From contig JBGSYL010000238.1 in NCBI GenBank assembly GCA_041750925.1, positions 1-25,795 of the forward strand: a stretch of DNA of 25,795 nt. Direction: 5' to 3'. Below are positions 2,160 to 21,841 of the stretch, piece after piece (position 1 is the first letter of the stretch; each line of letters starts with the position of its first letter). The position numbers and the translations under genes were made by a program. The notes beneath the pieces were generated by a model. That model did no database searches. It was given only the letters and a program-made list of their open reading frames with translations, and was not told where the DNA came from. Source of the DNA: Phycisphaeraceae bacterium. GTDB lineage: Bacteria; Planctomycetota; Phycisphaerae; Phycisphaerales; Phycisphaeraceae.

Positions 2160-2262
2160 ATTGAGGCACGAAGGCACGGAGGCACGGAGGGTGGACAGTC
2201 AGCCCTCGGTTCCGTGCCTGAACCCTCCGTGCCTATGTGCCTCAATGCCGCCTTCGTGCCTC
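2160..2262. repeat. Intergenic 8-nt micro-repeat inverted-repeat element (unit AGGCACGG/A)
   Basis: Three forward units (2164-2187) and four reverse units YGTGCCT (2213, 2228, 2236, 2255). ATTGAGGCAC 2160-2169 pairs with 2237-2246, and AGGCACGGAGG 2172-2182 pairs with 2224-2234. Confidence 0.85.
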
Positions 2263-2273
2263 TTGGAGTTTTA

Positions 2274-3614
2274 ATGATGTCCACCGAAACCCTGCCCGTA
2301 TTGCCTGCGTCCGACAAGGACAAGACGACGGCAGGCAACTATTTTGTCTCCAACTATCCGCCGTTCTCGTTTTGGAAGCCCGAATATGTGAACGAAGTCG
2401 AAGCGGCCATGGATCGTGCCCCGGCGCCGGATCGCACACTGGGGATGTATGTGCACATTCCGTTTTGCCGCAAGCGTTGCCACTTCTGTTATTTCAAGGT
2501 CTACACCGATCGCAATGCCGCGGCGATCAAGCAGTATCTCGATGCGGTGCTCACCGAACTGGCTTCGTATGTGAATAGACCCTTCATCGGCGGACGCAAG
2601 CCCAAGTTTCTTTACTTCGGCGGCGGTACGCCTTCCTATCTTTCGCCCGAGCAACTTCTCTACCTGACCGATGGCATGAAGAAGCTGCTGCCCTGGGATG
2701 AGATGGAGGAGGTGGCGTTTGAAGGCGAGCCGGGCACGCTTAATGAACGCAAGCTGCAGGCGATGGTCGACTTCGGCGTGACGCGGCTGTCGTTTGGCGT
2801 CGAACATTTTGATGATGAAATTCTCAAAAGCAACAACCGCGCCCACGATTCGAAGGCGACCTACAAGGCCTATGAAACGGCCCGGGCGGTGGGATTCAAG
2901 CAGATCAATATCGATCTGATTGCGGGCATGCTCAACGAGACGCAGGAGAAATGGGAGGATGCCGTCCGCCGCACGATTGAGATGGATCCCGAGTGCGTCA
3001 CGATTTATCAGATGGAGATTCCCTACAACACGACGATTTACCAGAACATGAAGGCGAGCGGCGAGATCGTCGCCCCCGTCGCCGACTGGCACACTAAACG
3101 CGAGTGGGTCGATTACGCTTTCCGCGAACTGGAGAAGCATGGCTACACCGTAACCAGTGCCTACACAGCAGTGAAGGACCCTTCGAAGGTGAAGTTCGTT
3201 TATCGCGATGAGCTCTGGCACGGGGCGGACATGCTGAGCCTGGGCGTTTCGAGCTTTGGCATCATCGATGGCACGCACTATCAGAACGAGGCGAACATCG
3301 ACAAGTATGTGGAGCGTATCGAGAAGGGCGAGTCGCCGGTGTTCCGGGCGTTCACGATGAACGATGAGGAAAAGTTCATCCGCGAGTTCATTCTGCAACT
3401 TAAGCTGGGCTCAGTGACGCGATCGTATTTCAAGGACAAATTCGACATTGATCCTGCCGAGCGATATGCGGCGGTGCTACGCGGCTATGCGGAGGAAGGC
3501 CTGGCGACGATTGAGCCGGATGCAATCCGTCTGTCGCGCGACGGGTTGCTGCAGGTGGATCGCCTGCTGCATGGATTCTTCATGGCGAAGCATCGGACGG
3601 ATCGGATCGTGTGA
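2274..3614 (+). CDS. HemN-like (class C) radical SAM protein, probably not a true coproporphyrinogen III oxidase
   Basis: YVHIPFCRKRCHFC (CxxxCxxC), YFGGGTPS, R.SFGVE.F, INIDLIAG, plus a HemN-type C-terminal domain. The N-terminus is YFVSNYPPF rather than the HemN RYTSYP. Start moved to ATG 2274 behind GGAG at 2265-2268; the ORF-track start at 2214 lies inside the repeat element. Confidence 0.85.
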   Translation: MMSTETLPVLPASDKDKTTAGNYFVSNYPPFSFWKPEYVNEVEAAMDRAPAPDRTLGMYVHIPFCRKRCHFCYFKVYTDRNAAAIKQYLDAVLTELASYVNRPFIGGRKPKFLYFGGGTPSYLSPEQLLYLTDGMKKLLPWDEMEEVAFEGEPGTLNERKLQAMVDFGVTRLSFGVEHFDDEILKSNNRAHDSKATYKAYETARAVGFKQINIDLIAGMLNETQEKWEDAVRRTIEMDPECVTIYQMEIPYNTTIYQNMKASGEIVAPVADWHTKREWVDYAFRELEKHGYTVTSAYTAVKDPSKVKFVYRDELWHGADMLSLGVSSFGIIDGTHYQNEANIDKYVERIEKGESPVFRAFTMNDEEKFIREFILQLKLGSVTRSYFKDKFDIDPAERYAAVLRGYAEEGLATIEPDAIRLSRDGLLQVDRLLHGFFMAKHRTDRIV

Positions 3615-3652
3615 GGCTCAGCGTGTGTCGGGTACAAGGTGAATAACGATTA

Positions 3653-3784
3653 ATCACGAAGGCACGAAGTCAGGAAAAAACGAGGGAGAGGAGCGAGGCC
3701 GCAGTGAATCAAACGCCGACTAACTTCGACCTGCATTCTCACTTTCCTTTGTCTCCTCCTTCGTATCCTCGTGCCTTCTGTGGT
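3653..3784. repeat. Intergenic micro-repeat inverted-repeat element (CACGAAGG-type unit)
   Basis: Left arm ATCACGAAGGCACGAAG (3653-3669), right arm CTTCGTATCCTCGTGCCTTCTGTGGT (3759-3784). Purine-rich and pyrimidine-rich inner arms (AGGAAAAAA..GGAGAGGAG versus TTTCCTTT..CTCCTCC). Same unit family as the 2160-2262 element. Confidence 0.7.
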
Positions 3785-3900
3785 AAAACCAAACCAGCAA
3801 TCGCGGCTTGATCTCCCATGAATTCAATCGCTTCACAAACCTCAAATTCGTCAGCATCGTCACGGCGGCGAAAATCGCCTGCGCGGAAAGGGAAGGGGCA

Positions 3901-4467
3901 ATGAAGTTGTCCGCGCAGCACCAGGCCGACCTGTTTTTTCCGCTCGATGAGTTTTACTCGGCGGAAGGGCGTTCGCTGCCCGCCATTGATCAGATTGATG
4001 GTGCGCAGATGCCCCAGCCTTACCGGCAACTGCTGGTGCATCAGGGCGACATGACGCCGACGCTGGAGAAATTCCACGGCAGCCGTATATCGCTCAAGCT
4101 TTTCGACAAGCGGCTGGGCACCGATGGCTGGCTCTCGCGGCGCGTCGCTTTGACGCTGGACGAGACGGGCCGGCCTGTCGAGTTCGGGGCGATCCGCATC
4201 AACCTCAACCTGTTTTCCCCCGTGGCCCGCGACCACATTCTCGAAGGCGTCCGTCCGCTGGGCACGATCCTCAACGAGGATGGCATCGTTCACAGCAGCC
4301 GGCCTGTCGCTTTCCTGCGCGTGCAGTCGGATGAGCTGATCAACCAGACGCTGGGTCTGAAGCAGCCGCAGGTTTTGTACGGGCGGCGCAATGTGCTTTA
4401 CAACGAGAACAATGAACCGCTGGCCGAGGTGGTGGAGATCCTGCCGCCGACGGAGGGGCGGCAGTGA
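3901..4467 (+). CDS. Chorismate pyruvate-lyase (UbiC/Rv2949c/DUF98)-like fold protein
   Basis: LLVHQGDMTPTLEKFHG, RRVAL, PVEFGAIRI, PLGTIL, GRRNVL and PLAEVVEILP follow the chorismate-lyase/UTRA-fold pattern. ATG 3901 has a purine-rich RBS. Catalytic activity cannot be confirmed by eye. Confidence 0.6.
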   Translation: MKLSAQHQADLFFPLDEFYSAEGRSLPAIDQIDGAQMPQPYRQLLVHQGDMTPTLEKFHGSRISLKLFDKRLGTDGWLSRRVALTLDETGRPVEFGAIRINLNLFSPVARDHILEGVRPLGTILNEDGIVHSSRPVAFLRVQSDELINQTLGLKQPQVLYGRRNVLYNENNEPLAEVVEILPPTEGRQ

Positions 4468-4512
4468 TCCGGATTGAACGCCCAGTCACAGACGGCGCGG
4501 AGGCGCAGAGCC

Positions 4513-4764
4513 ATGCCCAATGGCGAGCCATCGAGACGAAGCATCATCACCAAACTGATCGCTTGCGTTCTGCTTGGGGCGATTGGGCTGGTGTTCTTGT
4601 CGATGGCGGCTGTTCCTATCCTCGATCCGGGAGGCGGCGCTGGCGGCCAGGAGGCTCGTGCGAAGATGACGGCCACCAAACGGGTGATCGGCGTGGTGAT
4701 TCCTGGAACGATTTCATTGTTCTTCTTTGCCACGATGGTGTCGGTGGCTCGGGCGAGAAGATAG
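4513..4764 (+). CDS. Small hypothetical two-TM membrane protein (83 aa)
   Basis: GGAGG at 4499-4503 before ATG 4513. Two hydrophobic helices (LIACVLLGAIGLVFLSMAAVPIL and VIGVVIPGTISLFFFATMV) and a basic C-terminus. Confidence 0.45.
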   Translation: MPNGEPSRRSIITKLIACVLLGAIGLVFLSMAAVPILDPGGGAGGQEARAKMTATKRVIGVVIPGTISLFFFATMVSVARARR

Positions 4765-4831
4765 GCATTGTCGCCCCCGTGAACTCCATGATGAAATTCG
4801 ACAACACACATTTTCATGGCCCGTTTTTCAC

Positions 4832-4861
4832 TTGCCGCCTACCATGCGATTGAGTTATAGT
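4832..4861 (+). promoter_or_regulatory. Candidate sigma70-type promoter TTGCCG-N18-TATAGT upstream of the halogenase-like gene
   Basis: -35 at 4832-4837 and -10 at 4856-4861 in an AT-rich gap. GAGGA RBS just before ATG 4888. Motif match only. Confidence 0.35.
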
Positions 4862-4887
4862 ACGCGTACATACTTATTGAGGAACCC

Positions 4888-6183
4888 ATGGTTGCAAACA
4901 CTCAATCCGCGCAAAACACTGGCTCCAATCAATACGACGCCATCATCGTCGGCGGCGGGCCTTCGGGCACCACCGCTGCCGCCATCCTCGCGATGAAGGG
5001 CCGCAAGGTCATCGTGTTCGAAAGGGAAAAATTCCCGCGCTACCACATCGGCGAGTCGCTGATCCCGTTCACGTACTTCACGCTCGAGCGCATCGGCATG
5101 ATCCCCAAGCTGCGGGCGTCCAACTATCCCAAGAAGTATGGGGTGCAGTTCGTGCGGCCCAATGGAAAGATGTCCACGCCGTTCTATTTCTTCCAGCACA
5201 TGGAGCACGAATGCTCGCAGACCTGGCAGGTGTGGCGGCAGGATTTTGACCACATGCTCATGCATAACGCCCGCGAGAAGGGCGCCCTGTGCATCGAGGA
5301 GGCCACCGTCAAGGAACTGATCCACAACGAAGAGGGCTTCGTCATCGGTGTGCGCGTGTCGCACAAGGGCGAGGCGCCCGTCGAATACTTCGCGCCGATC
5401 ACTGTTGATGCCTCGGGTCGCGATGCGTTTTCCATCGTGCGGCACGACTGGCGCGAGCGCGATCCTTATCTCAATAAATGCGCCCTCTGGACCTACTTCA
5501 AAGGCGCCAAGCGCGACCCAGGCATCGACGAAGGCGCGACCACAGTGGCCTATGTGCCCGAGAAGGGCTGGTTCTGGTACATCCCGCTGCCTGACGATGT
5601 GGTGAGCTGCGGCATCGTCGCCGAGCGCGAGTATCTGCAGAAGGACAGCAAGGACCTGGAGACGATCTATTGGTCGATGGTCGAGCAGAATGCGTGGATC
5701 AAGGATCACCTCTCCACCGGGAAGGTGATCGACAAGTACCGCATGGTCAACGAGTATTCGTATCGCTCGCGTCATGGCGCCAAGGATGGACTGGTGCTCA
5801 TCGGCGATGCGTTCCAGTTTCTCGATCCCGTCTTCAGCTCCGGTGTGTTCATCGCGCTCAAGAGCGGTGAACTGGCGGGCGATGCCATCGATGCAGCTCT
5901 CACGGCAGGCGATTACTCGGCGAAGATGTTCGAGGATTACTCGCGATCACTCATGCACGGCGTCGAGTCGATGCGGCAGCTTGTTTATGCCTTCTATGAT
6001 CACGAATTCAGCTTCTCGCAGGTGCTGCGCAAGCACCCGCACCTGCGGCCGGATGTCACCGACTGCCTCATCGGCGACCTCTTCCGCGACTACACGGAGC
6101 TGTTCAGCGCGGTCAAGGAGTTTGCGAAGAATGTGCCCGAGCCGATCGAGCATGGCCTGCCGCTGGTGAAGGAAGCGGTGTGA
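4888..6183 (+). CDS. FAD-dependent halogenase-like oxidoreductase (PltA/CndH/CmlS-type, non-tryptophan class)
   Basis: GGGPSG FAD motif, PRYHIGESL.P, K83 in K-x-G-x-x-F (catalytic Lys position), WFWYIP (WxWxIP) and FLDPVFSSG. Confidence 0.8.
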   Translation: MVANTQSAQNTGSNQYDAIIVGGGPSGTTAAAILAMKGRKVIVFEREKFPRYHIGESLIPFTYFTLERIGMIPKLRASNYPKKYGVQFVRPNGKMSTPFYFFQHMEHECSQTWQVWRQDFDHMLMHNAREKGALCIEEATVKELIHNEEGFVIGVRVSHKGEAPVEYFAPITVDASGRDAFSIVRHDWRERDPYLNKCALWTYFKGAKRDPGIDEGATTVAYVPEKGWFWYIPLPDDVVSCGIVAEREYLQKDSKDLETIYWSMVEQNAWIKDHLSTGKVIDKYRMVNEYSYRSRHGAKDGLVLIGDAFQFLDPVFSSGVFIALKSGELAGDAIDAALTAGDYSAKMFEDYSRSLMHGVESMRQLVYAFYDHEFSFSQVLRKHPHLRPDVTDCLIGDLFRDYTELFSAVKEFAKNVPEPIEHGLPLVKEAV

Positions 6184-6196
6184 ATCAAAGCATTGA

Positions 6197-6300
6197 AAAA
6201 TGGCCAATGGTCATTGTAAAGTGCAAAATGATGTGATTCGTGCATCGCCTCGGCTTTGGCATTTTGCAATTTACATTTTGCATTGGACATTGGCCATTTT
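6197..6300. repeat. Intergenic heptamer-periodic inverted-repeat element
   Basis: Left AATGGCC AATGGTC ATTGTAA AGTGCAA AATG; right TTTTGCA ATTTACA TTTTGCA TTGGACA TTGGCCA. Perfect 13-bp outer pairing (6197-6209 with 6288-6300) and 15/16 inner pairing (6215-6230 with 6260-6275). Confidence 0.9.
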
Positions 6301-6315
6301 CCTCCTCCTCCCCCC

Positions 6316-7623: not shown

Positions 7624-7730
7624 GAGCGGCCCGCTGCGCGTTATCATATAAGTCCGCCACCCGCCCATCGCCCATTCCGCGCTGCGGCATCCCGCATCGC
7701 CATCCGGTTGCGGATATGGAGTTCCTTCCC

Positions 7731-8588
7731 ATGCGTCTGAATACCCGTCTGAGCACCCTTGTGGCCTTGATGGTCGTCGGCGTTGCCTCTTCACTTCAGG
7801 CCGAGGACCTCTTGGAGAAGCATGTCGATCTGGTCAAGGCGTCGCTCATTGCCGATGTCGATTCCGTTTCGCCCGGTTCATCGTTCATGCTCGGTGTTCA
7901 TCTGAAGATGAAGCCGCACTGGCACACCTACTGGGTCAACCCCGGCGAGTCAGGCGAGGCGACGAAGATCAAATTCACCGGGCCGCAGGGCGTCGAGTTC
8001 GGCGCTGTGCGCTGGCCGCTGCCTACGGCGATGGAGTCCTTCGGCGCGATCACCTATGGCTATGAAGATGAGGCGCTGCTGCTGGTGCCTGTGAAGGTCG
8101 GGGCCCAGGCGAAGCTGGAGGGTGGGCTGAAGATTGATGCCCATGTCGTCTGGCTGGCGTGTCTGGACACCTGCATCGAAGGCGAGGCGACGCTGAACAT
8201 CGCGCTGCCGGTCTCCAAATCCAAGCCAGCGCCGGCCAACGGGCCGCAGTTCGCCAAATGGATCAAGCAACTACCCGCAAGCAGCCACACGGCTGTGGCG
8301 GCGATCGAACAGAAGAAGAAGGATGGTGCGCCGCTGTCAGTGGTGGAGGTGAAGTGGAACGAAGCGCCCAAGAAGGTGGAGTGGTTCCCGATCGCGACCC
8401 CTGCGGTGGCGATTGAGGACATCGTCCTCAAGCACGAGGGCGTCAAGACGGTGATTCAGTTCAAGCCCAATGTCTACCGCCCCGACCGCGTGCCCGGCGG
8501 CAAGGTGGATGGCGTGATCGTGTTCGAGGATGGCAAGGGACAGCGCGTGGGTGTGGCGATGTCGTTTGTTGTGCCCATTGAGGAGTAG
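7731..8588 (+). CDS. Exported DsbD N-terminal-domain (DsbC/pfam11412-like) protein, without the TM and thioredoxin domains
   Basis: Signal peptide, WHTYWVNPGESG, WP.P..., YGYE and WLACLDTCIEG cysteine pair. GGAG at 7718-7721 supports ATG 7731. Confidence 0.75.
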   Translation: MRLNTRLSTLVALMVVGVASSLQAEDLLEKHVDLVKASLIADVDSVSPGSSFMLGVHLKMKPHWHTYWVNPGESGEATKIKFTGPQGVEFGAVRWPLPTAMESFGAITYGYEDEALLLVPVKVGAQAKLEGGLKIDAHVVWLACLDTCIEGEATLNIALPVSKSKPAPANGPQFAKWIKQLPASSHTAVAAIEQKKKDGAPLSVVEVKWNEAPKKVEWFPIATPAVAIEDIVLKHEGVKTVIQFKPNVYRPDRVPGGKVDGVIVFEDGKGQRVGVAMSFVVPIEE

Positions 8589-8622
8589 ACTTGGGACTTG
8601 AGACTTGGGACTTGAGACTTGG
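8588..8622. repeat. Heptamer tandem repeat (GACTTGG GACTTGA)2 GACTTGG, single arm
   Basis: Five exact 7-nt units alternating G/A at the last position, starting on the last base of the upstream stop codon. Confidence 0.95.
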
Positions 8623-9248: not shown

Positions 9249-9281
9249 TCCTTCGCTCGCGGTCGCCATCAAAGATTCACC

Positions 9282-13302: not shown

Positions 13303-16074
13303 TTGGGATGCAGTCGTTTGAGCGATCCGACGCGACTCCAATCCGAATCCCGCTTCACGATCGTTCGTGCCGATCGCCGGAGACGGTCCGACGATTTTCA
13401 TTCCAGTCGAGGCACGGGATTCATTACGGGCTCACGTTTCATCATTGCTCCGCGTTTCATCATCACTGCACGTCTGATCGTTGCATGGGCTTTGGCGGTG
13501 TCGCTACTTCTCTTCTTGTCGCCGATCGCCCGGGCCGATCTGGCGGGGTGCACCGCGAAGCTACAGTCGGGCGACTATGCAGGTTGCATCGAGGAAGCGA
13601 CGCAGGCGATTGAGAGCGGGCAGTTTGGCGAGCCGTGGCGATTGCTCAAGATTCAGGCGCAGCTGATTCGCGGGGAATATCAGGAGGCGCTGGCGACGTT
13701 TGAGATGGCGCTGCCGCGCTATCAATCGAGCATTCGGCTGCGGCTCTTGGGGCATGAGGTTTATTCGGCGCTGGGCCGGCGTGATGATGCGGCGCGGATG
13801 CTCGAGCAGATCAACCGGCTGGTGGGGGCCAGGCCGTGGTGGTATTCCGATGCGCTCGATCTGGTGGCGCAAGGCAGGGCGGCGCTGCTCCTGGGTGCTG
13901 ATCCACGGCAGGTGCTGGAGTTGATTTACGACAAGGCCCGCCGGGAATCGCCGGGCGTTCGCGAGACGTGGCTTGCGCCGGGCGAGCTGGCGCTGGACAA
14001 GCAGGATTACGCCGAGGCCGGCCGGCTGTTTACGGAGGCGGTCAAACGCTTTCCCAATGATCCGGACATTCACTACGGCATCGCGAGGGCGTTTGCCCCA
14101 TCCGATGGTCAGCGGACGATGGCGGCACTGGCGAAGACGCTGGAGCTGAATCCCAATCATGTCGGTGCGCTGCTCATGCAGGCCGATGAACTGATCGATG
14201 GCGAGAATCTGGCGGAGGCCGAGGAGGTGCTCGCGCAGGTGCTTTCGATCAACCCGGCGAGTGTGCCGGCGTGCTCTTACAGTGCGGTGCTGGCCCACTT
14301 GGAAAATGACAGCGAGGGCGAGGCGGTGAGCCGGTCGCGGGCGCTGAAGTTCAACATTGCGAACCCGGCGGTGGATCATTTGATCGGCCGTAAGCTGAGT
14401 CAAAAGTATCGCTTCGCCGAGGGCGCTGCTCATCAGCGGGCGGCGCTGAAGCTGGATGAAAATCATCTTCCGGCCAAGGCGCAGTTGTCGCAGGATCTAT
14501 TGCGACTGGGTGAAGTGGAGGAAGGGTGGAAACTGGCCCGCGAGGTTCTGGAGAAGGATGCCTACAACGTGGTGGCGTTTAATCTGGTCACGCTGCAGGA
14601 GAACATCGCGAAGTTCCGCACGCTGGAGGATGAGTTCTTCATTGTTCGCATGGAAGCCCGCGAGGCGGAGATTTATGGCGAGCGGGTGATGTCGCTGCTC
14701 AACCGGGCGAGGGTGGCGTTGTGCGACAAGTACGACATGAAACTCACGAGTCGGGTGACGGTGGAGATTTTTCCGGACCAGAAGGACTTTGCGATCCGCA
14801 CGTTCGGCCTGCCTGGCGGGGATGGATTTCTGGGCGTGTGCTTTGGCAATGTGATCACCGCGAACAGTCCGGCGGCCATCGGCGGGGCATCGAACTGGGA
14901 GGCGGTACTGTGGCATGAGTTCTGCCATGTGGTGACGCTGCAGGCGACGCGCAACCGCATGCCCCGCTGGTTGAGCGAAGGCATCAGCGTGTATGAGGAG
15001 AAGCAGGCGAACAAGACGTGGGGCCAGTCGATGACGCCGGTGTTCCGCGAGATGATTCTGGGCGGGGAGCTGACACCAGTGGGGCGGCTGAGCATGGCGT
15101 TTTTGCGGGCGCGGTCGGCGATGCATGTGCAGTTTGCGTATTACCAGTCGTCATTGGTGGTGGAGTTCATGATTCAAAAGGCGGGCATCGAGGGTGTGCG
15201 CAAGGTGCTGCGCGATCTGCATGAAGGCATCTACATCAATGCGGCCATCGAGAAACACATTGGGCCGATGAAGGAGATCGAGGCGGGGTTTGAGGCGCAT
15301 GCGAAAGCGCTGGCGCAGAAGCTGGCCCCGAGCGCGGACTGGGCCCCGCTGCCACCAGCGGCCCAGCGCGGGGGCGCTGCGCTGGCGGCTTGGCTTAAGG
15401 AGCATCCGGACAGTGTCGCGGGGCTGATGCTGCACGGGCAGGAACTGTTGGCGGAGAAAAAATGGAACGAGGCGAAGCAGCCTTTGCTCCGCGCCATCGA
15501 ACTGTTTCCCGAGGATGACAGCCCGAATAATGCGAACTGGCTATTGTCGCAGGCGCATCGGGCGCTGGAGGAAATGAAGGAGGAGCAGGCGGCCTTGGAG
15601 CGCATCGCCGCGATGAGTGCGGACCATGTGCCGGCGTTCTTGCGGCTGATGGAACTGGCGGGCGAACGGAAGGATTGGCCAGCGGTGCTCACCTTTGGCG
15701 ACCGCATTCTGGCGGTGAATCCGCTGTCGCCTTCGCCGCACCGGCTGCTGGCGATGGCGGCGGACTATATGAACGATCATGCGGCGGCGGCGCGGGCATT
15801 GCGCACGCTGCTGCTGATGGAGCCGGCGGATCCGGCGCAGTTGCATTTTGATCTGGCGCGGCATCTGTATGCGATGAAGAAGGATGACCCAGCGGCAAGG
15901 CGGCATGTACTGCGGGCCATTGAGGAAGCGCCGCGGTTTCAAGAGGCGCAGAAGTTGCTGTTGAGGATTGTGGAGGGTGACGGTCAGAAGGAAGGGGCAA
16001 GCAAACCTGAGGTGTCGCCCAAGCCCGATGGTGAGTCGTCGAACCGTCGGGGTGCTGTTGGTGATCCAAGGTGA
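13303..16074 (+). CDS. Exported TPR-repeat protein with peptidase MA-like (gluzincin) domain; start uncertain (TTG 13303 or 13318)
   Basis: Signal h-region LIVAWALAVSLLLFLSPIARA. Many TPR-like helices on both sides of LWHEFCHVV (HExxH) and PRWLSEG..VYEE (third-ligand Glu). Confidence 0.85.
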   Translation: MGCSRLSDPTRLQSESRFTIVRADRRRRSDDFHSSRGTGFITGSRFIIAPRFIITARLIVAWALAVSLLLFLSPIARADLAGCTAKLQSGDYAGCIEEATQAIESGQFGEPWRLLKIQAQLIRGEYQEALATFEMALPRYQSSIRLRLLGHEVYSALGRRDDAARMLEQINRLVGARPWWYSDALDLVAQGRAALLLGADPRQVLELIYDKARRESPGVRETWLAPGELALDKQDYAEAGRLFTEAVKRFPNDPDIHYGIARAFAPSDGQRTMAALAKTLELNPNHVGALLMQADELIDGENLAEAEEVLAQVLSINPASVPACSYSAVLAHLENDSEGEAVSRSRALKFNIANPAVDHLIGRKLSQKYRFAEGAAHQRAALKLDENHLPAKAQLSQDLLRLGEVEEGWKLAREVLEKDAYNVVAFNLVTLQENIAKFRTLEDEFFIVRMEAREAEIYGERVMSLLNRARVALCDKYDMKLTSRVTVEIFPDQKDFAIRTFGLPGGDGFLGVCFGNVITANSPAAIGGASNWEAVLWHEFCHVVTLQATRNRMPRWLSEGISVYEEKQANKTWGQSMTPVFREMILGGELTPVGRLSMAFLRARSAMHVQFAYYQSSLVVEFMIQKAGIEGVRKVLRDLHEGIYINAAIEKHIGPMKEIEAGFEAHAKALAQKLAPSADWAPLPPAAQRGGAALAAWLKEHPDSVAGLMLHGQELLAEKKWNEAKQPLLRAIELFPEDDSPNNANWLLSQAHRALEEMKEEQAALERIAAMSADHVPAFLRLMELAGERKDWPAVLTFGDRILAVNPLSPSPHRLLAMAADYMNDHAAAARALRTLLLMEPADPAQLHFDLARHLYAMKKDDPAARRHVLRAIEEAPRFQEAQKLLLRIVEGDGQKEGASKPEVSPKPDGESSNRRGAVGDPR

Positions 16075-16113
16075 ATCGATACCCCGACGGCTCGCAGACT
16101 CGCCATCGGGCTT
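16021..16113. repeat. REP-like palindrome doublet (two inverted 33-nt arms, each internally palindromic) straddling the TPR gene stop
   Basis: 16021-16053 versus 16081-16113: 29 WC + 1 G.U + 3 mismatches, 27-nt spacer. Each arm has the form CCCGAYGG-N12-CCRTCGGG. Confidence 0.8.
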
Positions 16114-16186
16114 GGGAAGGGATTCAAGGTTGTTCGAGAATCAAGGGCTGGAAAAACCAACGACTCGAAGATCAAGGACGTGACCC

Positions 16187-17026
16187 ATGCTCCGACTCTC
16201 CAGGAAATCGCTCCTTCTGCTCACCATGCTCATCGCCGCGACGGCGGTCACGACCATCTCTCTCGCCCAGCGCGGCACTCGCCCCATTGATGAGGAGACG
16301 CTTCTGCGAGCCGGACTCTCCGATTGGAAGAACGATCCGAGGTTTGAGAACGATGTCTTCACCTTCGTCCGCGTCATTTACTCCAACTGGGGCGGCCGGC
16401 GGCGCGGTGGAAGCTGGGCGGTTGACTTTCCCGATTCCGATCTCAACTTTTCCTTCCGCCTGCAGCAACTCACTTCGCTCAAGGTCAATCCGCGGCCGGT
16501 GCAACTGGAACTAACCGATGAGCGGCTGTTCGATTACCCCTGGATCTACATGGTGGAGCCGGGCGGGCTGTCGTTCGATGAGGCTGAGGTGAAGGCCCTG
16601 CGGAGGTACCTGCTCAACGGCGGCTTCATGATGGTGGATGACTTTTGGGGCGGTGATGAGTACGACAATTTCCACCGTGAGATCAAGCGGGTGTTCCCCG
16701 ATCGCGAGGTGGTCGAACTGCCCATCGAGCATCCGATTTTTCACTGTGTGTACGACTTGAAAGAGAAGCCGCAGGTCCCCTCGATCGGCCACGGCATGCG
16801 CGGCGAACGGTACGAATGGCGGCCCGGTCCCGACGATGGCAGTCAGGTCCACTACCGCGCCATCTTCGATGACAAGGGCCGCATGATGGTCATCATCTGC
16901 CACAACACCGACCTGGGCGACGGCTGGGAACGCGAAGGTGAGAACCACTACTACTTCAAGGAATTCTCAGAGAAACAGGCCTATCCGATGGGGATCAATA
17001 TCGTGTTCTACGCAATGACACACTGA
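16187..17026 (+). CDS. DUF4159 domain protein (exported)
   Basis: Signal peptide; F.FVRV.Y, W..DFPDSDLN, YPWIYM.EPG, LR.YL.NGGF...DDFWG, HPIFH, GRMMV...HNTDLGDGWE, G.NIV.YAMTH. AGGA RBS. Confidence 0.85.
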   Translation: MLRLSRKSLLLLTMLIAATAVTTISLAQRGTRPIDEETLLRAGLSDWKNDPRFENDVFTFVRVIYSNWGGRRRGGSWAVDFPDSDLNFSFRLQQLTSLKVNPRPVQLELTDERLFDYPWIYMVEPGGLSFDEAEVKALRRYLLNGGFMMVDDFWGGDEYDNFHREIKRVFPDREVVELPIEHPIFHCVYDLKEKPQVPSIGHGMRGERYEWRPGPDDGSQVHYRAIFDDKGRMMVIICHNTDLGDGWEREGENHYYFKEFSEKQAYPMGINIVFYAMTH

Positions 17027-17032
17027 GGGTGT

Positions 17033-17273
17033 AAATCCCAAATCACAAGGATCAAATCTCAAACAAAATAGAAAGCAGAGGAAACGATCCAAATGGGAAA
17101 GCGGAATGGAGCCAAAGTCAGAAAATCTTCGACTGACTTCCGTTTGATCTGGTTTGATTTGTTTGATTTGGTTTGATTCGGCCCCATTGAGATTTGTCTG
17201 TGGTCTGAGATTTGCAGTTTGGAATTTGCCCATTGAAATTTGTTTGTGATTTGTGATTTGAGGTTTGGGATTT
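17033..17273. repeat. 241-bp intergenic heptamer-periodic inverted-repeat element with internal repeats
   Basis: Left AAATCCC AAATCAC AAGGATC AAATCTC; right GATTTGT GATTTGA GGTTTGG GATTT. Perfect 10-bp termini (17033-17042 with 17264-17273). Internal 4x GTTTGAT (17142-17179) and 2x CCATTGARATTTGT. Confidence 0.85.
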
Positions 17274-17291
17274 ATCAACGGAGTGCTCGAC

Positions 17292-18296
<1,005 letters not shown>

Positions 18297-18301
18297 GAAA
18301 G

Positions 18302-18450
18302 GCGATTAGTGAGTGGTGATTAGTGAATAGTAATAGTTATTGGTCGGAGCCGGAGGCCGTCGAACCATCAGCCAATCTCCGATTCCCACTCTTCAATCAC
18401 TAATCACTATTCACTAATAACCAATCACTAATCGCTAATCGCTAATCGCT
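18302..18450. repeat. Intergenic heptamer inverted-repeat element (AATCACT/AATCGCT units)
   Basis: Right arm has eight consecutive heptamers at 18395-18450 (AATCACT x2, ATTCACT, AATAACC, AATCACT, AATCGCT x3). Left arm 18302-18344 carries their complements; GCGATTAGTGA pairs perfectly with TCACTAATCGC. Confidence 0.92.
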
Positions 18451-18460
18451 CGACCTTCCC

Positions 18461-19618
18461 ATGACAACGTCAGCTTCCAATCCGCCGGTCTCCAATGTCG
18501 ATTACATCGACCCGCGGGCTTTGATGCGCATCAAGAGTCTGGAACTGCGGGCCCGGATGATCGTCGAGGGGTTCATGACCGGCATGCACCGCTCGCCTTA
18601 TCACGGCTTCTCCGTCGAGTTCACCGAGTATCGCCAGTACACCGCCGGCGATGACCCGCGCTATATCGACTGGAAACTCTACGCCCGCAGCGACCGGCTG
18701 CACGTCAAGCGGTTCGAGGATGAAACCAATCTCCGCTGCTGGCTGCTGGTGGACAATTCAAAGTCGATGCAGTTTGGCAGCATCACGGATCAGGCGGGTG
18801 AAGCCGCCCCATCTGTTGCAAGCACCCAAGGCCCGCGCACTGCCGCGCGTGGGGCCACCTGGGAAAAATCCGACTACGCCGCCACTCTCGCCGCGACGTT
18901 TGCCTACTTCCTTTCGACCCAGCACGATGCCGCGGGCCTGGTCACCTTCGACGAGGTCATCCGCGAGTATCTGCCGGCCCGCTATCGGCCCGGGCATCTG
19001 CGGCGGCTGATGATCGCCCTGGACCAGCCGGCTGCGGGTGTCACGACGAGTCTCACGGCTCCGCTGCGGCGCATCGCCGATCTGGTCACCAAGCGCGGCA
19101 TGCACGTGCTCATCTCCGATCTGCTTGCCCCGCTCGACGGGCTGGAAACGCATCTGGGATATCTGCGCTCGCGCGGGCATGAGGTGATGGTGTTCCACAT
19201 TCTGGACCCTGCGGAACTTTCGCTGAATTTCGACACTCCGGCGATTTTTGAGGATGTCGAATCCGGCCGCGAGTTGTATGTCGATCCGCAGATCATCCGC
19301 GAGGACTACACCCGCAAGATGCAGTGCCATCTGGCTGCCATCGAGGCCATCTGCGAAGGGCACGGCATCGACTACCACCGCTTCACCACCGACCAGCCGC
19401 TGGAACTGGCGATGTTCGACTTCTTCAGCGCTCGCATGCAGACCAAGCGGCCGACGATGCGCCACGGCGGCTCCAAAGCACCATCCCGACAGGGTGGTGC
19501 CGACGGTCGACAATCATCCTCGACGCCGCGTATCACCGCGCCGCGTACCACCTCCGCAGCAGTTAACACCACGGCACCACCCTTTCGGGATGGTGCTTTG
19601 CCAGGGAGGCCCGCATGA
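18461..19618 (+). CDS. DUF58 domain (vWA-like) MoxR partner protein with C-terminal extension
   Basis: G.HRSPYHGFSVEF.EYRQY..GDD.RYIDWK.YAR, K.FE.ETN, DNSKSM (MIDAS-like), LISD, F.D.ESG. Confidence 0.92.
   Translation: MTTSASNPPVSNVDYIDPRALMRIKSLELRARMIVEGFMTGMHRSPYHGFSVEFTEYRQYTAGDDPRYIDWKLYARSDRLHVKRFEDETNLRCWLLVDNSKSMQFGSITDQAGEAAPSVASTQGPRTAARGATWEKSDYAATLAATFAYFLSTQHDAAGLVTFDEVIREYLPARYRPGHLRRLMIALDQPAAGVTTSLTAPLRRIADLVTKRGMHVLISDLLAPLDGLETHLGYLRSRGHEVMVFHILDPAELSLNFDTPAIFEDVESGRELYVDPQIIREDYTRKMQCHLAAIEAICEGHGIDYHRFTTDQPLELAMFDFFSARMQTKRPTMRHGGSKAPSRQGGADGRQSSSTPRITAPRTTSAAVNTTAPPFRDGALPGRPA
19474..19600. repeat. REP-like palindrome doublet fully inside the DUF58 coding sequence
   Basis: CAAAGCACCATCCCGACAGGGTGGTGCCG (19474-19502) is the reverse complement of 19572-19600 at 28/29 positions. 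Each arm is itself a hairpin (GCACCAYCC-N5-GGRTGGTGC). 69-nt spacer. Confidence 0.88.
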
Positions 19619-21795
19619 GCTTCCTGGCGCCATTCTTTCTTGCGGCGGTCGGCGCGATTTCGCTGCCGATTCTGCTGCATCTGATCCGTCGCACACCGCG
19701 CGGCAAGGTGATCTTCAGTTCGCTGATGTTCCTGTCGCCCACGCCGCCGCGGCTGACCAAGCGGAGCAGCATCGAACACTGGCTGCTGCTTTTTCTGCGC
19801 GGGCTGGCGGTGGTGCTGATCGCCCTGGCGTTCGCCCGCCCGTTCTTCTGGGAGAGCGCCACGGCTGATGCCCAGGAAGCCGGTGATGGCCGGCGGGTGG
19901 CGATTCTCATCGACACCAGCGGCTCGATGCAGCGCGAGGACCTGTGGCGGCAGGCGACGATGGCGGTGGATGCGGCGCTCAACGAGGCCGCGCCGACGGA
20001 TGAGTTTTCGCTGATGGCGTTTGATCGCAGTGTTCGCCGGATGGTCAGTCGCGAGCAGTGGTCGGCTGCTCCGCTGCCGCAGCGGGCGGCACTGATCAAG
20101 GATGCGCTGGCGTCGCTGTCGCCCGGTCATGGTGCGACGAATCTGGGCGATGCGCTCGTCGCCGCTGCCGATGCGCTCAATGAAAATGAAAGCACCACTG
20201 ATGAGCGGGCCTTCACCGGTCAGCGGCAGATCGTGCTCATCACCGATCTTCAGGAGGGCAGCCACCTGGGCCCGCTCGATGGTTACGACTGGCCGGGGCA
20301 GGTGACGGTGAAGGTGGCGCAGGTCAAGGCCAAGGCCGTGACGAATGCGGGGCTGCAGATCGTGGCCGATCGCGAGACGACGAGCGATGCCAAAGACACG
20401 CTGCGCGTGCGGGTGCACAATGCGAGGAATTCCGAGCGCGAGTCGTTCACAATCCGATTCGATCCCCTCGAACTTGCCACTGAATCCGCTCCGGGCGCGC
20501 CGGCGTCTCGCGTGACCATCGCCCCGAAGGCCATCGAGGTCTATGTCCCGCCCGGCGAGTCGCGGACCCTTCGCACGGGCGACCTGTCCTTGTGGTGGTC
20601 GCCGATGGGCAACACGATCAGTCTCGAAGGCGATGATCATCCGTTTGACAACCGCGTGTACCACAGTGCAACGCACCCTGCCGAGGTGGTGATTGTTTAC
20701 ATCGGCGACGACGCCGCCGGCGATGTGCAAGGTCTGCGGTTCTATCTTGAGCTGGTTTATGCCCCTGGCCGCGAACTGATCACGAGAGTGGTCACGGTCA
20801 GGCCCGGGCAGTCGCTGCCACCGGGCGAGACGGATGGCGCGGCGCTGATCATTGTTGGAGAGGCGACGCCGCATACGCAGGCGCTGCGCAAGCGGGCTGA
20901 GGAAGGGGCCACGCTACTCCTGGTCGCCCGCGACACCGGCATGATGCGGACGCTGGCCGACCTGCTGCCATCGTCGCCCGCCGCGACGGGGATCACGCTG
21001 ACCGAGGCGGATGTCAAGGATTACGCGATGCTCAGCGAGATCGACTTCAAGCATCCGCTGTTTGCCCCGTTCGCCGATCCGCGCTTCAGCGATTTCACGA
21101 CGATCCGTTTCTGGAAGCATCGGCGGCTTGATGCGGCGGCGATCGAAGGCTCGCGCGTCCTGGCTAAGTTTGATGATGGTTCGCCGGCGTTGGTGGAGAC
21201 GCCCATCGGCAAGGGGCGCTGTTTCACGCTGGCCGCCGGCTGGCACCCTGCGGACGGGCAGCTTGCCCTTTCGAGCAAGTTTGCCCCGCTCATGCATGTG
21301 CTGCTGCGGCAGGCGATGGGCCAGCCGCCCGCTTCGTCGCGACTGGTCGTGGGTGATGCGATCGATCTGGCTTGGCTGGCGAATTCGCCATCGTATCGCG
21401 GCAAGCCGGTGACGGTGACGGGGCCGGACCAGGGGGCTCTCATGCTTGGCGAGGATCAGCGGATCACGGCGACGGATCAGCCGGGCGTTTATCGCGTGCA
21501 GGTGGGCGAGGAGATGCTGCGCATGGCGGTGAACCTGCCTGCCGGTGAGAGCGAAACGATGCCGCTGCCCGCGGCGGAACTGGAGAAGCGCGGCGTAAGA
21601 TTGTGGCAATCGCAAACGGTTTCAGTCGAAAAGCAGGAAGAACAGAAGCGGCAGATGCGCATGACGGAACTGGAAAACAGGCACAAAATCTGGCGCTGGC
21701 TCATCGTCGCCGCCATCGCGGTGCTCATGCTCGAGACGTTTGTGGCGGGCCGGTTCGCACGGCCTGCGGGCGGCGGGAATGAGACGGCGAGCTGA
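19615..21795 (+). CDS. BatA-type N-terminal double-TM + vWA domain membrane protein
   Basis: MSFLAPFFL...LPILLHLIRR...FSSLMFL N-terminal double-TM motif, IDTSGSM MIDAS, TN, LITD, and C-terminal TM WRWLIVAAIAVLMLE. ATGA overlap with DUF58. Confidence 0.88.
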   Translation: MSFLAPFFLAAVGAISLPILLHLIRRTPRGKVIFSSLMFLSPTPPRLTKRSSIEHWLLLFLRGLAVVLIALAFARPFFWESATADAQEAGDGRRVAILIDTSGSMQREDLWRQATMAVDAALNEAAPTDEFSLMAFDRSVRRMVSREQWSAAPLPQRAALIKDALASLSPGHGATNLGDALVAAADALNENESTTDERAFTGQRQIVLITDLQEGSHLGPLDGYDWPGQVTVKVAQVKAKAVTNAGLQIVADRETTSDAKDTLRVRVHNARNSERESFTIRFDPLELATESAPGAPASRVTIAPKAIEVYVPPGESRTLRTGDLSLWWSPMGNTISLEGDDHPFDNRVYHSATHPAEVVIVYIGDDAAGDVQGLRFYLELVYAPGRELITRVVTVRPGQSLPPGETDGAALIIVGEATPHTQALRKRAEEGATLLLVARDTGMMRTLADLLPSSPAATGITLTEADVKDYAMLSEIDFKHPLFAPFADPRFSDFTTIRFWKHRRLDAAAIEGSRVLAKFDDGSPALVETPIGKGRCFTLAAGWHPADGQLALSSKFAPLMHVLLRQAMGQPPASSRLVVGDAIDLAWLANSPSYRGKPVTVTGPDQGALMLGEDQRITATDQPGVYRVQVGEEMLRMAVNLPAGESETMPLPAAELEKRGVRLWQSQTVSVEKQEEQKRQMRMTELENRHKIWRWLIVAAIAVLMLETFVAGRFARPAGGGNETAS

Positions 21796-21800
21796 TCCAT

Positions 21801-21841
21801 TGACCTGACTGACTTGACTTGACCTGACTCATCGACTTGAC
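21801..21841. repeat. Intergenic TGAC(C/T) pentamer-type micro-repeat
   Basis: Seven TGAC copies at 21801, 21806, 21810, 21815, 21820, 21825 and 21838. Confidence 0.75.

What the first reader, a model, noticed from the sequence alone, without database searches (positions are those of the whole stretch)
2160..21841. Many operon junctions carry a micro-repeat element, each with a different repeat unit
Seen: seven intergenic elements (2160-2262, 3653-3784, 6197-6300, 8588-8622, 17033-17273, 18302-18450, 21801-21841) plus a solo arm near 4488-4510. Each lies between co-oriented genes and starts close after a stop codon. Five are two-armed inverted repeats of about 100-240 bp built of 7- or 8-nt units. 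The units differ between elements (AGGCACGG, AATGGCC/TTTTGCA, GACTTGR, AAATCCC, AATCACT), so what is conserved is the architecture (period-7/8, two arms), not the sequence. Established: heptameric STRR repeats occur in cyanobacterial intergenic DNA, and intergenic stem-loops can set differential mRNA stability in operons. Inference: this is either a sequence-flexible class of non-autonomous mobile/processing elements or an RNA-level stoichiometry code, with hairpins that can slip register. My unverified recollection is that similar arms flank four-helix-bundle (IVS-like) and GxxExxY genes in other genomes; these would then be empty copies.
Basis: partly seen in the sequence, partly recalled or inferred. 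Interest (0 to 1): 0.72.

Follow-up and report, generated by a model that had tools for sequence, protein, structure and literature searches.

The report
Heptamer-armed hairpin mobile elements between genes
The repeat-built hairpins between this window's genes are real, but they are not an operon code: they are gene-less copies of dispersed, insertion-polymorphic palindromic elements whose arms also enclose small "23S rRNA intervening-sequence" (four-helix-bundle) and GxxExxY nuclease genes.

Summary
Five long hairpins fold far better than shuffles (2157-2262, 3653-3784, 6197-6300, 17032-17274, 18302-18449), and there are two arm-only arrays (8587-8622, 21800-21841). The "solo arm" at 4488-4510 is not supported.

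Genome-wide this is a very large signal. Period-7 arrays number 728 in 0.73 Mb of intergenic DNA, against 17 in shuffles. I found 365 paired elements.

They are equally frequent per gap between co-oriented, divergent and convergent genes. They show no sense-strand folding bias and differ between congeners at most junctions. This argues against a stoichiometry code.

Six of the seven window elements belong to multi-copy families. Three of them (at 2157, 6197 and 17032) carry compound terminal inverted repeats rather than bare repeat units. Of the 365 elements, 160 have a full-length relative elsewhere, up to 98% identical.

The 18302 hairpin is a clean 168-nt insertion into an ATGA stop/start overlap that both congeners keep intact.

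The same arms flank four-helix-bundle (PF05635) and GxxExxY (PF13366) genes here, in both congeners, and in 64 of 76 homologues from other phyla.

Best reading: MITE-like relatives of IVS-type cassettes. RNase III processing of their stems is inferred, not shown. This scan has already noted the class in at least 75 other genomes.

The parts
2157..2262 (.). Hairpin element of the GGCACGRA word family, with left terminus GGAAGGGATTGAGGCACGAAGGCACG. It lies between the PQQ-propeller gene (stop 2153) and the HemN-like gene (start 2275).
   Evidence: IR; TRF; fold -60.8 kcal/mol, z -5.3. An orthologous copy sits at the same junction in G002, and a different-word element (AGGCAAT) in G001. The word occurs 111 times in this genome and 383 times in G002.
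3653..3784 (.). Composite hairpin with outer CACGAAGG words and inner GGAGAGG/CCTCTCC words. Periodicity is weak.
   Evidence: IR; fold -50 kcal/mol, z -4.1. Absent from G002 (57-nt spacer); G001 carries a CACAGATG-word hairpin at this junction.
6197..6300 (.). Hairpin element with a compound 34-nt terminal inverted repeat, AAAATGGCCAATGGTCATTGTAAAGTGCAAAATG.
   Evidence: IR; fold -40.2 kcal/mol, z -3.6. Its arms are 82% and 88% identical over 34 nt to the arms of a four-helix-bundle cassette in congener G002:C27. The terminus occurs at 19 loci in this genome. G001 and G002 carry a CAGCNNT-word hairpin at this junction instead.
8587..8622 (+). Arm-only tandem array, GACTTGG/GACTTGA x5, beginning at the stop codon of the DsbD_N gene.
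   Evidence: TRF; no inverted partner; no fold (z -0.2). The word family has 26 loci here and forms the arm beside four-helix-bundle gene C613.
17032..17274 (.). Hairpin element of the CAAATCACAA family, 243 nt, filling the DUF4159|MoxR spacer.
   Evidence: IR; fold -82.8 kcal/mol, z -4.6. Eighteen aligned copies share a terminus of about 35-40 nt, and the terminus occurs at 83 loci. It is 76% identical over 66 nt to the flank of four-helix-bundle cassette C194. Orthologous copies are present in G001 and G002.
18297..18460 (.). Inserted block holding hairpin 18302-18449 (GATTAGT / AATCACT words), bracketed by ATGA at 18293-18296 and 18461-18464.
   Evidence: Fold -59.4 kcal/mol, z -8.9. It is a clean 168-nt indel against G001 and G002, where MoxR and DUF58 overlap by ATGA. 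The word family has 28 loci.
21800..21841 (+). Arm-only TTGACYTGAC array between BatA and the giant Q-rich protein gene.
   Evidence: TRF; no fold (z +0.7); unique in the genome at the stringency used. At this junction G002 has a roughly 200-nt GCTGATW-word hairpin and G001 has an ATGA overlap.
4488..4510 (+). Claimed 'solo arm'. This is not an element.
   Evidence: No TRF row; fold z -0.5; lies inside ORF 4464-4853.

Best explanation
The window's junction elements are ORF-less members of several dispersed families of palindromic elements. Each has terminal inverted repeats built mostly of 7-nt (less often 8-10-nt) words, so each folds into a 30-80-bp hairpin.

They behave like miniature non-autonomous mobile elements:
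- many copies per family;
- near-identical copies at unrelated loci;
- nesting inside one another's loops;
- presence/absence and replacement between congeners;
- one clean insertion that split an ATGA stop/start overlap and left ATGA on both sides.

The same family-specific arms enclose small genes for four-helix-bundle proteins (PF05635, the '23S rRNA intervening-sequence protein') and GxxExxY/PD-(D/E)XK proteins (PF13366). The gene-bearing form is therefore the same kind of unit as an ORF-bearing 23S rRNA intervening sequence.

The elements survive mainly just downstream of stop codons, in every kind of intergenic gap. That is where they do least harm.

Inferred, not shown: when co-transcribed, the long stems would be RNase III substrates, as in intervening sequences. 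The hairpin would also keep the flanking stop and start codons close together. The cargo proteins are the candidate word-recognising partners for spread.
For: Scale:
- Period-7 arrays number 728 in 0.73 Mb of intergenic DNA against 17 in shuffles.
- 628 of 1653 intergenic arrays have an inverted partner within 1.5 kb, against 93 with a direct partner.
- There are 365 paired elements, median length 110 nt, median -0.49 kcal/mol per nt.

Families:
- 75 word clusters. The top ones hold 48, 34, 26, 20 and 20 paired copies.
- The CAAATCACAA family has a conserved compound terminus of about 35-40 nt in 18 aligned copies.
- 160 of 365 elements have a relative elsewhere that covers at least 80% of their length, up to 97.6% identical over 84 nt.

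Insertion polymorphism:
- The 168-nt indel at MoxR|DUF58, with ATGA duplicated.
- Of the seven window junctions that carry a micro-repeat element in at least one of the three genomes (five of them compared in all three), only one (DUF4159|MoxR) keeps the same family in all three. One more shares it between G000 and G002.
- Further presence/absence cases appear among 40 conserved junctions compared with G002.

Nesting: L005, L006 and the six-layer nest in G002:C1.

Cargo link:
- The 5 four-helix-bundle and 2 GxxExxY genes of this genome.
- 11 of 11 four-helix-bundle genes in the congeners.
- 64 of 76 homologues from many phyla have flanking inverted arms, and 63 of those 64 pairs are clearly periodic, always at period 7. 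The displaced-window control gives 0 of 69.
- Window arms match cassette arms at 82-88% over 34 nt and 76% over 66 nt.

Placement: 148 elements are closer to the upstream stop and 54 to the next start (p = 3e-11). Median distance is 10 nt after the stop.

The GGCACGRA word is patchy across relatives: 111, 383 and 20 copies in the genus, clearly above its control in 2 more of 30 relatives, and none in most.

An RNase III gene is present.

Literature: the Coxiella intervening sequence has a 28-bp terminal stem, tandem GACAGAT heptamers of variable number, an RNase III cut at the first repeat, and a decaying S23p ORF (PMC4990558).
Against: - No transposase-type enzyme is tied to the elements, and no movement has been observed.
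- A target duplication is seen in only one case. It could instead reflect selection for keeping both genes intact.
- The most abundant word family of G002 and of the window's first element (GGCACGRA) has no four-helix-bundle or GxxExxY copy with those arms in any of the three genomes. A cognate gene-bearing master is therefore not always present.
- Interiors of the CAAATCACAA family hold no detectable remnant of the gene, so 'derived by deletion' is not shown. The genes could instead be passengers that settle in hairpin loops.
- No RNA data exist for this organism, so processing is untested.
- Gene calls came from my own crude caller, so distances to start codons are approximate.
Confidence: 0.66

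Rival explanations
1. The hairpins are selected RNA elements. Intercistronic hairpins would set differential mRNA stability or translation within operons (a 'stoichiometry code'), with register slippage as a tuning device.
For: Within the window all elements lie between co-oriented genes and nearly fill the spacers. The stems are very stable. The DUF4159|MoxR element is kept in all three congeners. An RNase III gene is present.
Against: - Frequency per gap is the same in divergent and convergent gaps as in co-oriented gaps.
- The sense strand is no more stable than the antisense strand (89 vs 112).
- At most junctions the element is absent or swapped for an unrelated family in congeners, although the flanking genes are 80-90% identical.
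- Copies up to 97.6% identical (most full-length pairs 76-87%) sit at unrelated loci.
Confidence: 0.1
2. Local origin without mobility. Replication slippage would favour 7-nt units (the polymerase-footprint idea of Mrazek et al. 2007, as summarised in PMC4679880 and PMC4692102), and palindromes would then arise in place.
For: - Copy number of units differs between orthologous elements; for example, the right arm is expanded in G002 at the 2157 junction.
- Solo arrays are common, and 42 word clusters have a single paired copy.
- The 21800 array is unique in the genome.
Against: - Compound 34-40-nt termini that are not simple repeats recur at 19-83 loci and in other genomes.
- Full-length copies, loops included, are up to 97.6% identical.
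- A whole hairpin is inserted as one block at an ATGA overlap.
- Concentric nests exist.
- The same words flank homologous genes across phyla.
Confidence: 0.1
3. REPIN-like elements moved in trans by the genome's Y1 (RAYT/IS200-type) transposases. The four-helix-bundle and GxxExxY genes would be only passengers.
For: Four PF01797 matches exist in the genome. One lies beside a conserved REP-like palindrome family. The genome holds several such sequence-conserved palindrome families next to the micro-repeat ones.
Against: No Y1 gene is bracketed by inverted micro-repeat arms; only single heptamer arrays occur near two of them. The arms are many unrelated words, whereas RAYTs act on one cognate REP. 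The cross-phylum association of arms is with the four-helix-bundle gene.
Confidence: 0.08
4. Intrinsic or bidirectional transcription terminators or attenuators.
For: They are stable hairpins placed shortly after stop codons. Density per kb is highest in convergent gaps (0.71 against 0.38 in divergent gaps).
Against: None of the window elements is called terminator-like, and the count of such sites equals chance (17 against 15.5). There are no T-tracts after the stems. The stems are 5-10 times longer than terminator stems. They also sit inside obviously co-translated pairs such as MoxR|DUF58.
Confidence: 0.04

Closest known systems
ORF-bearing intervening sequences (IVS) of 23S rRNA (Coxiella burnetii, Leptospira, Xanthomonas, Brucella; S23p = PF05635), PMC4990558
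   Same: Terminal inverted repeats form a long stem. Tandem heptamers of variable number lie in the stem. The enclosed gene is a small four-helix-bundle gene, often decaying. The distribution looks selfish and horizontally spread. The gene-bearing sisters of the window elements carry PF05635 genes.
   Different: The window copies lie between protein-coding genes, not in 23S rRNA helices. They are gene-less, number in the hundreds, and come in dozens of word families. RNase III cleavage is shown for intervening sequences and only inferred here.
Intergenic GGGAATC heptamer repeats of Xanthomonas and GGGGAYT repeats of Nostoc (Rehm et al. 2015, PMC4692102); STRR heptamers of cyanobacteria; TAACTGA repeats of Beggiatoaceae (PMC4679880)
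   Same: There is an excess of tandem heptamers in intergenic DNA. Xanthomonas has 70-75 convergent pairs that form inverted repeats. Placement is much nearer the end of the upstream ORF (28 nt) than the next ORF (160 nt). Length and sequence vary between close relatives.
   Different: Those reports describe one or a few words per genome and propose G-quadruplex or regulatory roles or polymerase slippage. In the passages I read, neither PMC4692102 nor PMC4679880 links them to four-helix-bundle or GxxExxY cassettes or to insertion as a unit. This genome has about 75 word clusters.
MITEs whose inverted repeats fold in mRNA and are cut by RNase III (Correia elements of Neisseria; ERIC/IRU of enterobacteria). 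Recalled from my own knowledge, not checked here.
   Same: They are small, gene-less, multi-copy, have terminal inverted repeats, are co-transcribed with neighbouring genes, and show insertion polymorphism.
   Different: Correia elements have one conserved sequence and a TA target duplication, and they derive from a transposase-bearing lineage. Here the arms are word arrays of many kinds, and the gene-bearing partners encode no recognisable transposase.
REP/REPIN elements with RAYT transposases
   Same: Both are extragenic palindromes in inverted pairs, occur in hundreds of copies, and are placed after genes. This genome also holds REP-like families and Y1 transposase genes.
   Different: REPs are 20-40-nt single palindromes of one sequence per RAYT. 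The elements here are 60-240 nt, built of tandem words, of many families, and not bracketing the Y1 genes.

Membership tests
ORF-bearing 23S rRNA intervening sequence (IVS) | Inserted in a 23S rRNA helix (helix 25 or 45) | tested here: not met
   All window copies lie between protein-coding genes. No 23S rRNA gene is assembled in this 75%-complete MAG.
ORF-bearing 23S rRNA intervening sequence (IVS) | Terminal inverted repeats forming a long stem, with tandem heptamers in it | tested here: met
   Compare the 28-bp stem and GACAGAT repeats of Coxiella (PMC4990558).
ORF-bearing 23S rRNA intervening sequence (IVS) | Encloses a PF05635 (S23p) gene | tested here: not met
   Window copies are gene-less, with loops of 30-170 nt. 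Sister copies with the same arm families do enclose PF05635 genes.
ORF-bearing 23S rRNA intervening sequence (IVS) | Excised from the transcript by RNase III | not testable with these tools
   An RNase III gene is present. No RNA run is available.
MITE (miniature inverted-repeat transposable element) | Short, non-coding, multi-copy, with terminal inverted repeats conserved within a family | tested here: met
MITE (miniature inverted-repeat transposable element) | Target-site duplication | tested here: inconclusive
   There is one clean case, ATGA on both sides of the 18297-18460 insert. No consistent duplication is visible at the ends of the 18 aligned CAAATCACAA copies.
MITE (miniature inverted-repeat transposable element) | Shares termini with an autonomous element that encodes a transposase | tested here: inconclusive
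   Termini are shared with gene-bearing cassettes. Their genes encode a four-helix bundle (PF05635) and a PD-(D/E)XK-fold protein (PF13366), not known transposases.
MITE (miniature inverted-repeat transposable element) | Insertion polymorphism between related genomes | tested here: met
REP/REPIN-RAYT | A cognate Y1 (RAYT) gene flanked by the same repeats | tested here: not met
   Four PF01797 matches exist, and none is bracketed by inverted micro-repeat arms.
Intrinsic terminator | Short GC-rich stem followed by a T-tract | tested here: not met
   No terminator-like call falls at any element.
Known RNA families (Rfam 15) | Match at gathering score | tested here: not met
   There are 0 matches in the window.

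The most novel reading that the evidence does not exclude
Four-helix-bundle (PF05635) and GxxExxY proteins may be word-specific nucleic-acid-binding partners that drive the spread or maintenance of heptamer-armed hairpins. If so, the cassettes and their hundreds of gene-less copies would form a transposase-less class of mobile element. That class would account for the long-noted excess of heptamer repeats in bacterial intergenic DNA, with 23S rRNA intervening sequences as one special case. The hairpin design would make insertion nearly neutral, because it extrudes from the host RNA and keeps the flanking stop and start codons, or rRNA helix halves, together.
Probability: 0.3. Interest if true: 0.85.

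Novelty: new variant of a known kind. Interest (0 to 1): 0.55.

Why it matters
Heptamer repeats are the most over-represented long simple repeats in many bacterial genomes, and no accepted cause exists. The PF05635 '23S rRNA intervening-sequence protein' family is huge and has no known function.

This genome shows the two together on a large scale. There is roughly one heptamer array per kb of intergenic DNA, in dozens of word families. Several of these share their termini with gene-bearing cassettes.

The genome also offers a clean natural insertion, at MoxR|DUF58. That insertion can be rebuilt in a test system to ask three questions: what the hairpin does to a translationally coupled gene pair, whether RNase III cuts it, and whether the cargo proteins bind their own words.

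For annotation, it warns that intercistronic hairpins in such genomes should be read as mobile-element scars first and as regulatory devices only with evidence.

Tried and rejected
1. Arms as suppliers of stop codons in all three frames. Stop-triplet density in the 5' arm (0.035) is no higher than in shuffled arms (0.040), and 210 of 365 left arms have no stop. Rejected.

2. Copy-specific compensatory evolution of interiors. In 18 CAAATCACAA copies, the self fold (-0.251 kcal/mol per nt) equals that of chimeras of left and right halves from different copies (-0.247). Interior pairing therefore comes from purine-rich against pyrimidine-rich composition. Rejected.

3. Gene remnants in the interiors of that family. 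Only 1 of 18 copies scores above shuffles for the start region and 1 of 18 for the stop region. Not supported. The 6197 element shares only ATGATG-GA with the cassette start.

4. Sense-strand G-U bias as a sign of RNA-level selection. Absent.

5. Rfam: 0 matches.

6. Terminator scan: at chance level.

7. 23S rRNA intervening sequence in the same genome: no 23S gene is assembled.

8. Expression data: no RNA holder listed. The DNA comes from a hot-spring metagenome.

9. Exact look-up of the DUF58 protein for the source record: nothing on record.

10. Assembly breaks at repeats: only a modest excess of arrays at contig ends (5.1% against 3.1%).

11. Spans of 800 nt or more between matching arms enclose ordinary genes (Nudix, HAD, ECF sigma, a pilin-like gene). 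These are two separate elements of one family, not cassettes.

12. Y1 transposases as bracketed masters: not seen.

Full report
**1. What is in the window**

The window (G000 contig C238, 25.8 kb, 60.6% G+C) is almost entirely one strand of co-oriented genes. In order they are:
- a PQQ-type propeller
- a HemN-like radical SAM enzyme
- two unassigned ORFs
- a flavin halogenase-like enzyme
- a GT4 glycosyltransferase
- a DsbD_N protein
- a haem protein
- a TPR-peptidase
- DUF4159, MoxR, DUF58 and BatA
- a giant Q-rich protein

Inverted repeats are present at 2157-2249, 3658-3778, 6197-6300, 17032-17274 and 18302-18449.

As single strands the five fold into long hairpins of -40 to -83 kcal/mol, with z from -3.6 to -8.9; no shuffle does as well. 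The arrays at 8587-8622 and 21800-21841 have no partner arm and do not fold. The 'solo arm' at 4488-4510 is not distinguishable from background. No Rfam family matches, and none of the elements looks like an intrinsic terminator.

**2. Genome-wide picture**

The window belongs to a fragmented MAG: 806 contigs, 4.41 Mb, 61.5% G+C, 75% complete, from a hot-spring metagenome. I called genes with a simple codon-usage caller. It found 3726 genes covering 83% of the DNA. Stops are reliable; starts are approximate.

- Period-7 tandem arrays are the dominant repeat of intergenic DNA. They number 994 per Mb there against 52 per Mb in coding DNA.
- Counts in intergenic DNA against dinucleotide shuffles are 728 vs 17.0 for period 7, 177 vs 26 for period 8, 278 vs 20 for period 9, and 87 vs 5 for period 14.
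- Of 1653 intergenic arrays, 628 have an inverted partner within 1.5 kb sharing at least five 7-mers. Only 93 have a direct partner by the same criterion.
- This yields 399 paired elements, 365 of them 400 nt or shorter. Their median length is 110 nt and median fold energy -0.49 kcal/mol per nt.

**3. Not an operon-junction feature**

Paired elements occur in 0.10-0.11 of co-oriented gaps, 0.13 of divergent gaps and 0.115 of convergent gaps. Per kb they are rarest in divergent, promoter-bearing gaps (0.38) and commonest in convergent gaps (0.71).

In co-oriented gaps the sense strand folds no better than the antisense strand (89 vs 112 elements). So there is no G-U signature of selection on the transcript.

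The median distance is 10 nt after the upstream stop and 50 nt before the next start. 148 elements are nearer the stop and 54 nearer the start (p = 3e-11). The same asymmetry was published for the Xanthomonas GGGAATC heptamers, at 28 against 160 nt (PMC4692102).

A second intrinsic regularity is arm polarity. The 5' arm is purine-rich in 278 elements and pyrimidine-rich in 82, and G exceeds C in 274 against 79 (p about 1e-26). Because an inverted repeat reads the same on both strands, this is a property of the element, not of its orientation. I cannot explain it. Supplying stop codons is not the reason.

**4. Sequence families, not just an architecture**

The 365 elements use 128 exact units, which fall into 75 clusters. 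The largest clusters are:

| Word | Paired copies |
|---|---|
| GTTCCAA / GTTCCGA | 48 |
| GGCTTGR | 34 |
| GGCACGAA | 26 |
| CAAATCA | 20 |
| GCAAATT / GCAAAAT | 20 |

Six of the seven window elements belong to multi-copy families. At looser thresholds the counts are 48 loci for GGCACGRA, 19 for the 6197-type terminus, 26 for GACTTGR, 83 for the CAAATCACAA terminus and 28 for AATCACT. The TTGACYTGAC array is unique.

The families are defined by more than a repeated word:
- Eighteen aligned copies of the CAAATCACAA family share a compound terminus of about 35-40 nt, AAGCTCCAAATCACAA-nnnn-CAAATCTCAAACAAA. It is followed by a purine-rich left interior and a pyrimidine-rich right interior.
- The 6197 arms are one specific 34-nt sequence.
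- The 2157 element starts with GGAAGGGATTGAGGCACGAAGG, as do copies in G002.

Of the 365 elements, 160 have a relative elsewhere that covers at least 80% of their length, loop included. The best pairs are 90-98% identical. That pattern indicates dispersal of whole units, not independent local slippage.

**5. Turnover between congeners**

Two same-genus genomes (G001, G002) are syntenic with the window, with flanking genes 75-90% identical in DNA. Junction by junction:

| Junction | G000 (window) | G002 | G001 |
|---|---|---|---|
| PQQ / HemN-like | GGCACGRA element | Same element, right arm expanded | Unrelated AGGCAAT-word hairpin |
| HemN-like / next gene | Composite hairpin | None | CACAGATG-word hairpin |
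| Halogenase / GT4 | 6197-type element | CAGCNNT-word hairpin | CAGCNNT-word hairpin |
| DUF4159 / MoxR | CAAATCACAA element | Orthologous, diverged | Orthologous, diverged |
| MoxR / DUF58 | Hairpin present | ATGA overlap | ATGA overlap |
| BatA / giant protein | Solo array | ~200-nt GCTGATW hairpin | ATGA overlap |

The MoxR/DUF58 alignment shows a clean 168-nt indel. The inserted block 18297-18460 is bracketed by ATGA at 18293-18296 and 18461-18464, so both reading frames stay intact.

A wider sample of 40 conserved junctions against 426 kb of G002 shows further cases. Spacers of 0-35 nt in one genome face 150-220 nt of repeat hairpin in the other.

The GGCACGRA word is abundant in the genus (111, 383 and 20 matches). 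It stands clearly above its control in 2 of the other relatives (G011 and G024) and gives no match in most.

**6. Nesting**

Elements sit inside the loops of others. Examples:
- a REP-like palindrome inside a GTTCCAG hairpin (L005);
- an ACGAAGG hairpin inside an AGTTCCG hairpin (L006);
- in G002:C1, a six-layer concentric nest of four word families, A(B(A(B(C(D-loop-D')C')B')A')B')A').

The simplest history is repeated insertion of complete hairpins into resident loops.

**7. The link to four-helix-bundle and GxxExxY genes**

The genome has five TIGR02436/PF05635 genes and two TIGR04256/PF13366 genes.
- Four lie between inverted period-7/8 arms: C675:5267-5883 (GTTCCAG words), C675:8216-8713 (GTTYCGA), C194:7344-7937 (CAAATCACAA) and C449:2094-2536 (GGAATGC).
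- Two more sit at contig ends with one arm visible: C613 (GGCTTGG) and C513 (CACAGAG).
- One adjoins an AGTTCCG hairpin: C279.

In the congeners, all 11 four-helix-bundle genes have such arms or adjoin such hairpins. They include a cassette in G002:C27 whose arms are the 6197-type terminus, 28/34 and 30/34 identical to the window element. A G001 cassette carries CAAATCACAA arms. The window's 17027-17110 is 50/66 identical to the flank of the C194 cassette.

As an independent check I fetched 80 homologues of the C675 protein. They are 51-63% identical and come from records labelled as Acidobacteriota, Verrucomicrobiota, Planctomycetota, Desulfobacterota, Clostridia and others. Of the 76 usable loci, 64 have significant inverted arms flanking the gene. 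Displaced control windows give 0 of 69. Of the 64 arm pairs, 63 are clearly periodic, all at period 7, with related words (GTTCCGA, GTCCAAT, GTTCAAA, GTTTCTA, GTCACGG). Gene and arms thus travel together across phyla.

**8. What this does and does not show**

Shown:
- The window elements are gene-less members of dispersed, insertion-polymorphic palindromic families.
- Several of these families share their termini with PF05635 or PF13366 cassettes.

Not shown: how they move.
- No transposase is tied to them.
- The genome's four Y1-type transposase matches are not bracketed by such arms.
- The GGCACGRA family has no gene-bearing copy in three genomes.
- The CAAATCACAA interiors hold no gene remnant. 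The C194 gene itself is frameshifted. So either the empties descend from cassettes by complete loss of the gene, or the genes are passengers of hairpins.

The RNA-level consequence is inferred by analogy. It comprises cleavage of 30-80-bp stems by the genome's RNase III (gene present) and the holding together of the flanking stop and start codons. In the Coxiella intervening sequence, RNase III cuts at the first of the tandem heptamers in a 28-bp terminal stem (PMC4990558). No RNA data exist for this organism.

**9. Relation to what is known and to this scan**

The published pieces are:
- the heptamer excess among long simple repeats (Mrazek et al. 2007, as summarised in PMC4679880 and PMC4692102);
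- Xanthomonas and Nostoc heptamer arrays, with inverted pairs and placement near the 5' ORF (PMC4692102);
- TAACTGA repeats (PMC4679880);
- the ORF-bearing intervening sequence with heptamers (PMC4990558).

My two literature searches for the protein families and for heptamer hairpins found no paper that joins these pieces.

Within this scan the same class has already been noted in at least 75 other genomes. Those are unchecked AI notes. I re-tested their main claims here: the cassette architecture, gene-less copies, polarity, swapping between relatives, and cross-phylum association. These agree. The claim that one arm retains the gene's first codons I could support only weakly, for the 6197 family.

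**10. Verdict**

The 'operon stoichiometry code' and 'sequence-free architecture' halves are not. The window copies are ordinary members of a class that is still undescribed in the literature I could search, hence moderate interest.

Noticed in passing
window 19474-19600: A palindromic element with 29-nt arms, 97% complementary, of the multi-copy AAAGCACCATCCCGACAGGGTGGTGCC family. It lies in frame inside the C-terminal tail of DUF58 and is absent from both congeners, whose tails are about 120 nt shorter.
   Followed up: partly
window 16018-16116: A REP-like doublet with 36-nt arms, 89% complementary, overlying the stop of the TPR-peptidase gene. One arm recurs in inverted orientation at the same junction in G002 (L021 2871-2909), and at a different junction in G001 (reverse complement of L024, 5750-5786).
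   Followed up: partly
L056 (G002:C1:43950-44430): A concentric 'Russian-doll' palindrome of four word families (AGTTCCG, GGCACGAA, GCTGAAT, AAATGGCC/GCAAAAT) in six layers. A similar layered order of the same word families follows a four-helix-bundle gene in G002:C144 (L052).
   Followed up: partly
L009 (G000:C758:8013-8694): An AGTTCCG hairpin and a second solo array of the same word appear to lie within or at the start of a MiaB/RimO-like radical SAM reading frame.
   Followed up: no
G000:C194:7400-7770: The four-helix-bundle gene inside the CAAATCACAA-armed cassette is frameshifted. The ORF from its ATG stops after 60 codons, while the HMM match continues in another frame. This fits the decay reported for S23p in Coxiella.
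   Followed up: partly
genome-wide: Besides the word-built hairpins, the genome holds several sequence-conserved palindrome families, for example GTGGCACGGGCAGGCCGCTGCTTTGAGCGGTTTGCCCGTGGCGAT, TTCAGCCGCGAAGCGGCGGCATGACGTAGCCGGGGGCGTAAGCCCCCGG and GGGTGCGTCAAGGCTCGGCGCAGACGCACC. The last of these lies beside a Y1 transposase-like gene (C185).
   Followed up: partly
window 4464-4853: A 129-codon ORF overlapping the upstream stop (GTGA), with no Pfam match and no counterpart in either congener. Their spacers at this junction hold REP-like palindromes or a GAGGTCA array instead.
   Followed up: partly
window 23417-25550: The giant open-ended protein has long CAG/CAA tracts and a 45-nt (135-nt super-unit) in-frame tandem repeat, x7.4 at 25155-25486.
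   Followed up: no
L057-L136: The closest homologues of the C675 four-helix-bundle protein (51-63% identity) are spread over records labelled as Acidobacteriota, Verrucomicrobiota, Desulfobacterota, Planctomycetota, Clostridia, Anaerolineae and Actinobacteria. This implies frequent horizontal transfer of the cassette.
   Followed up: partly
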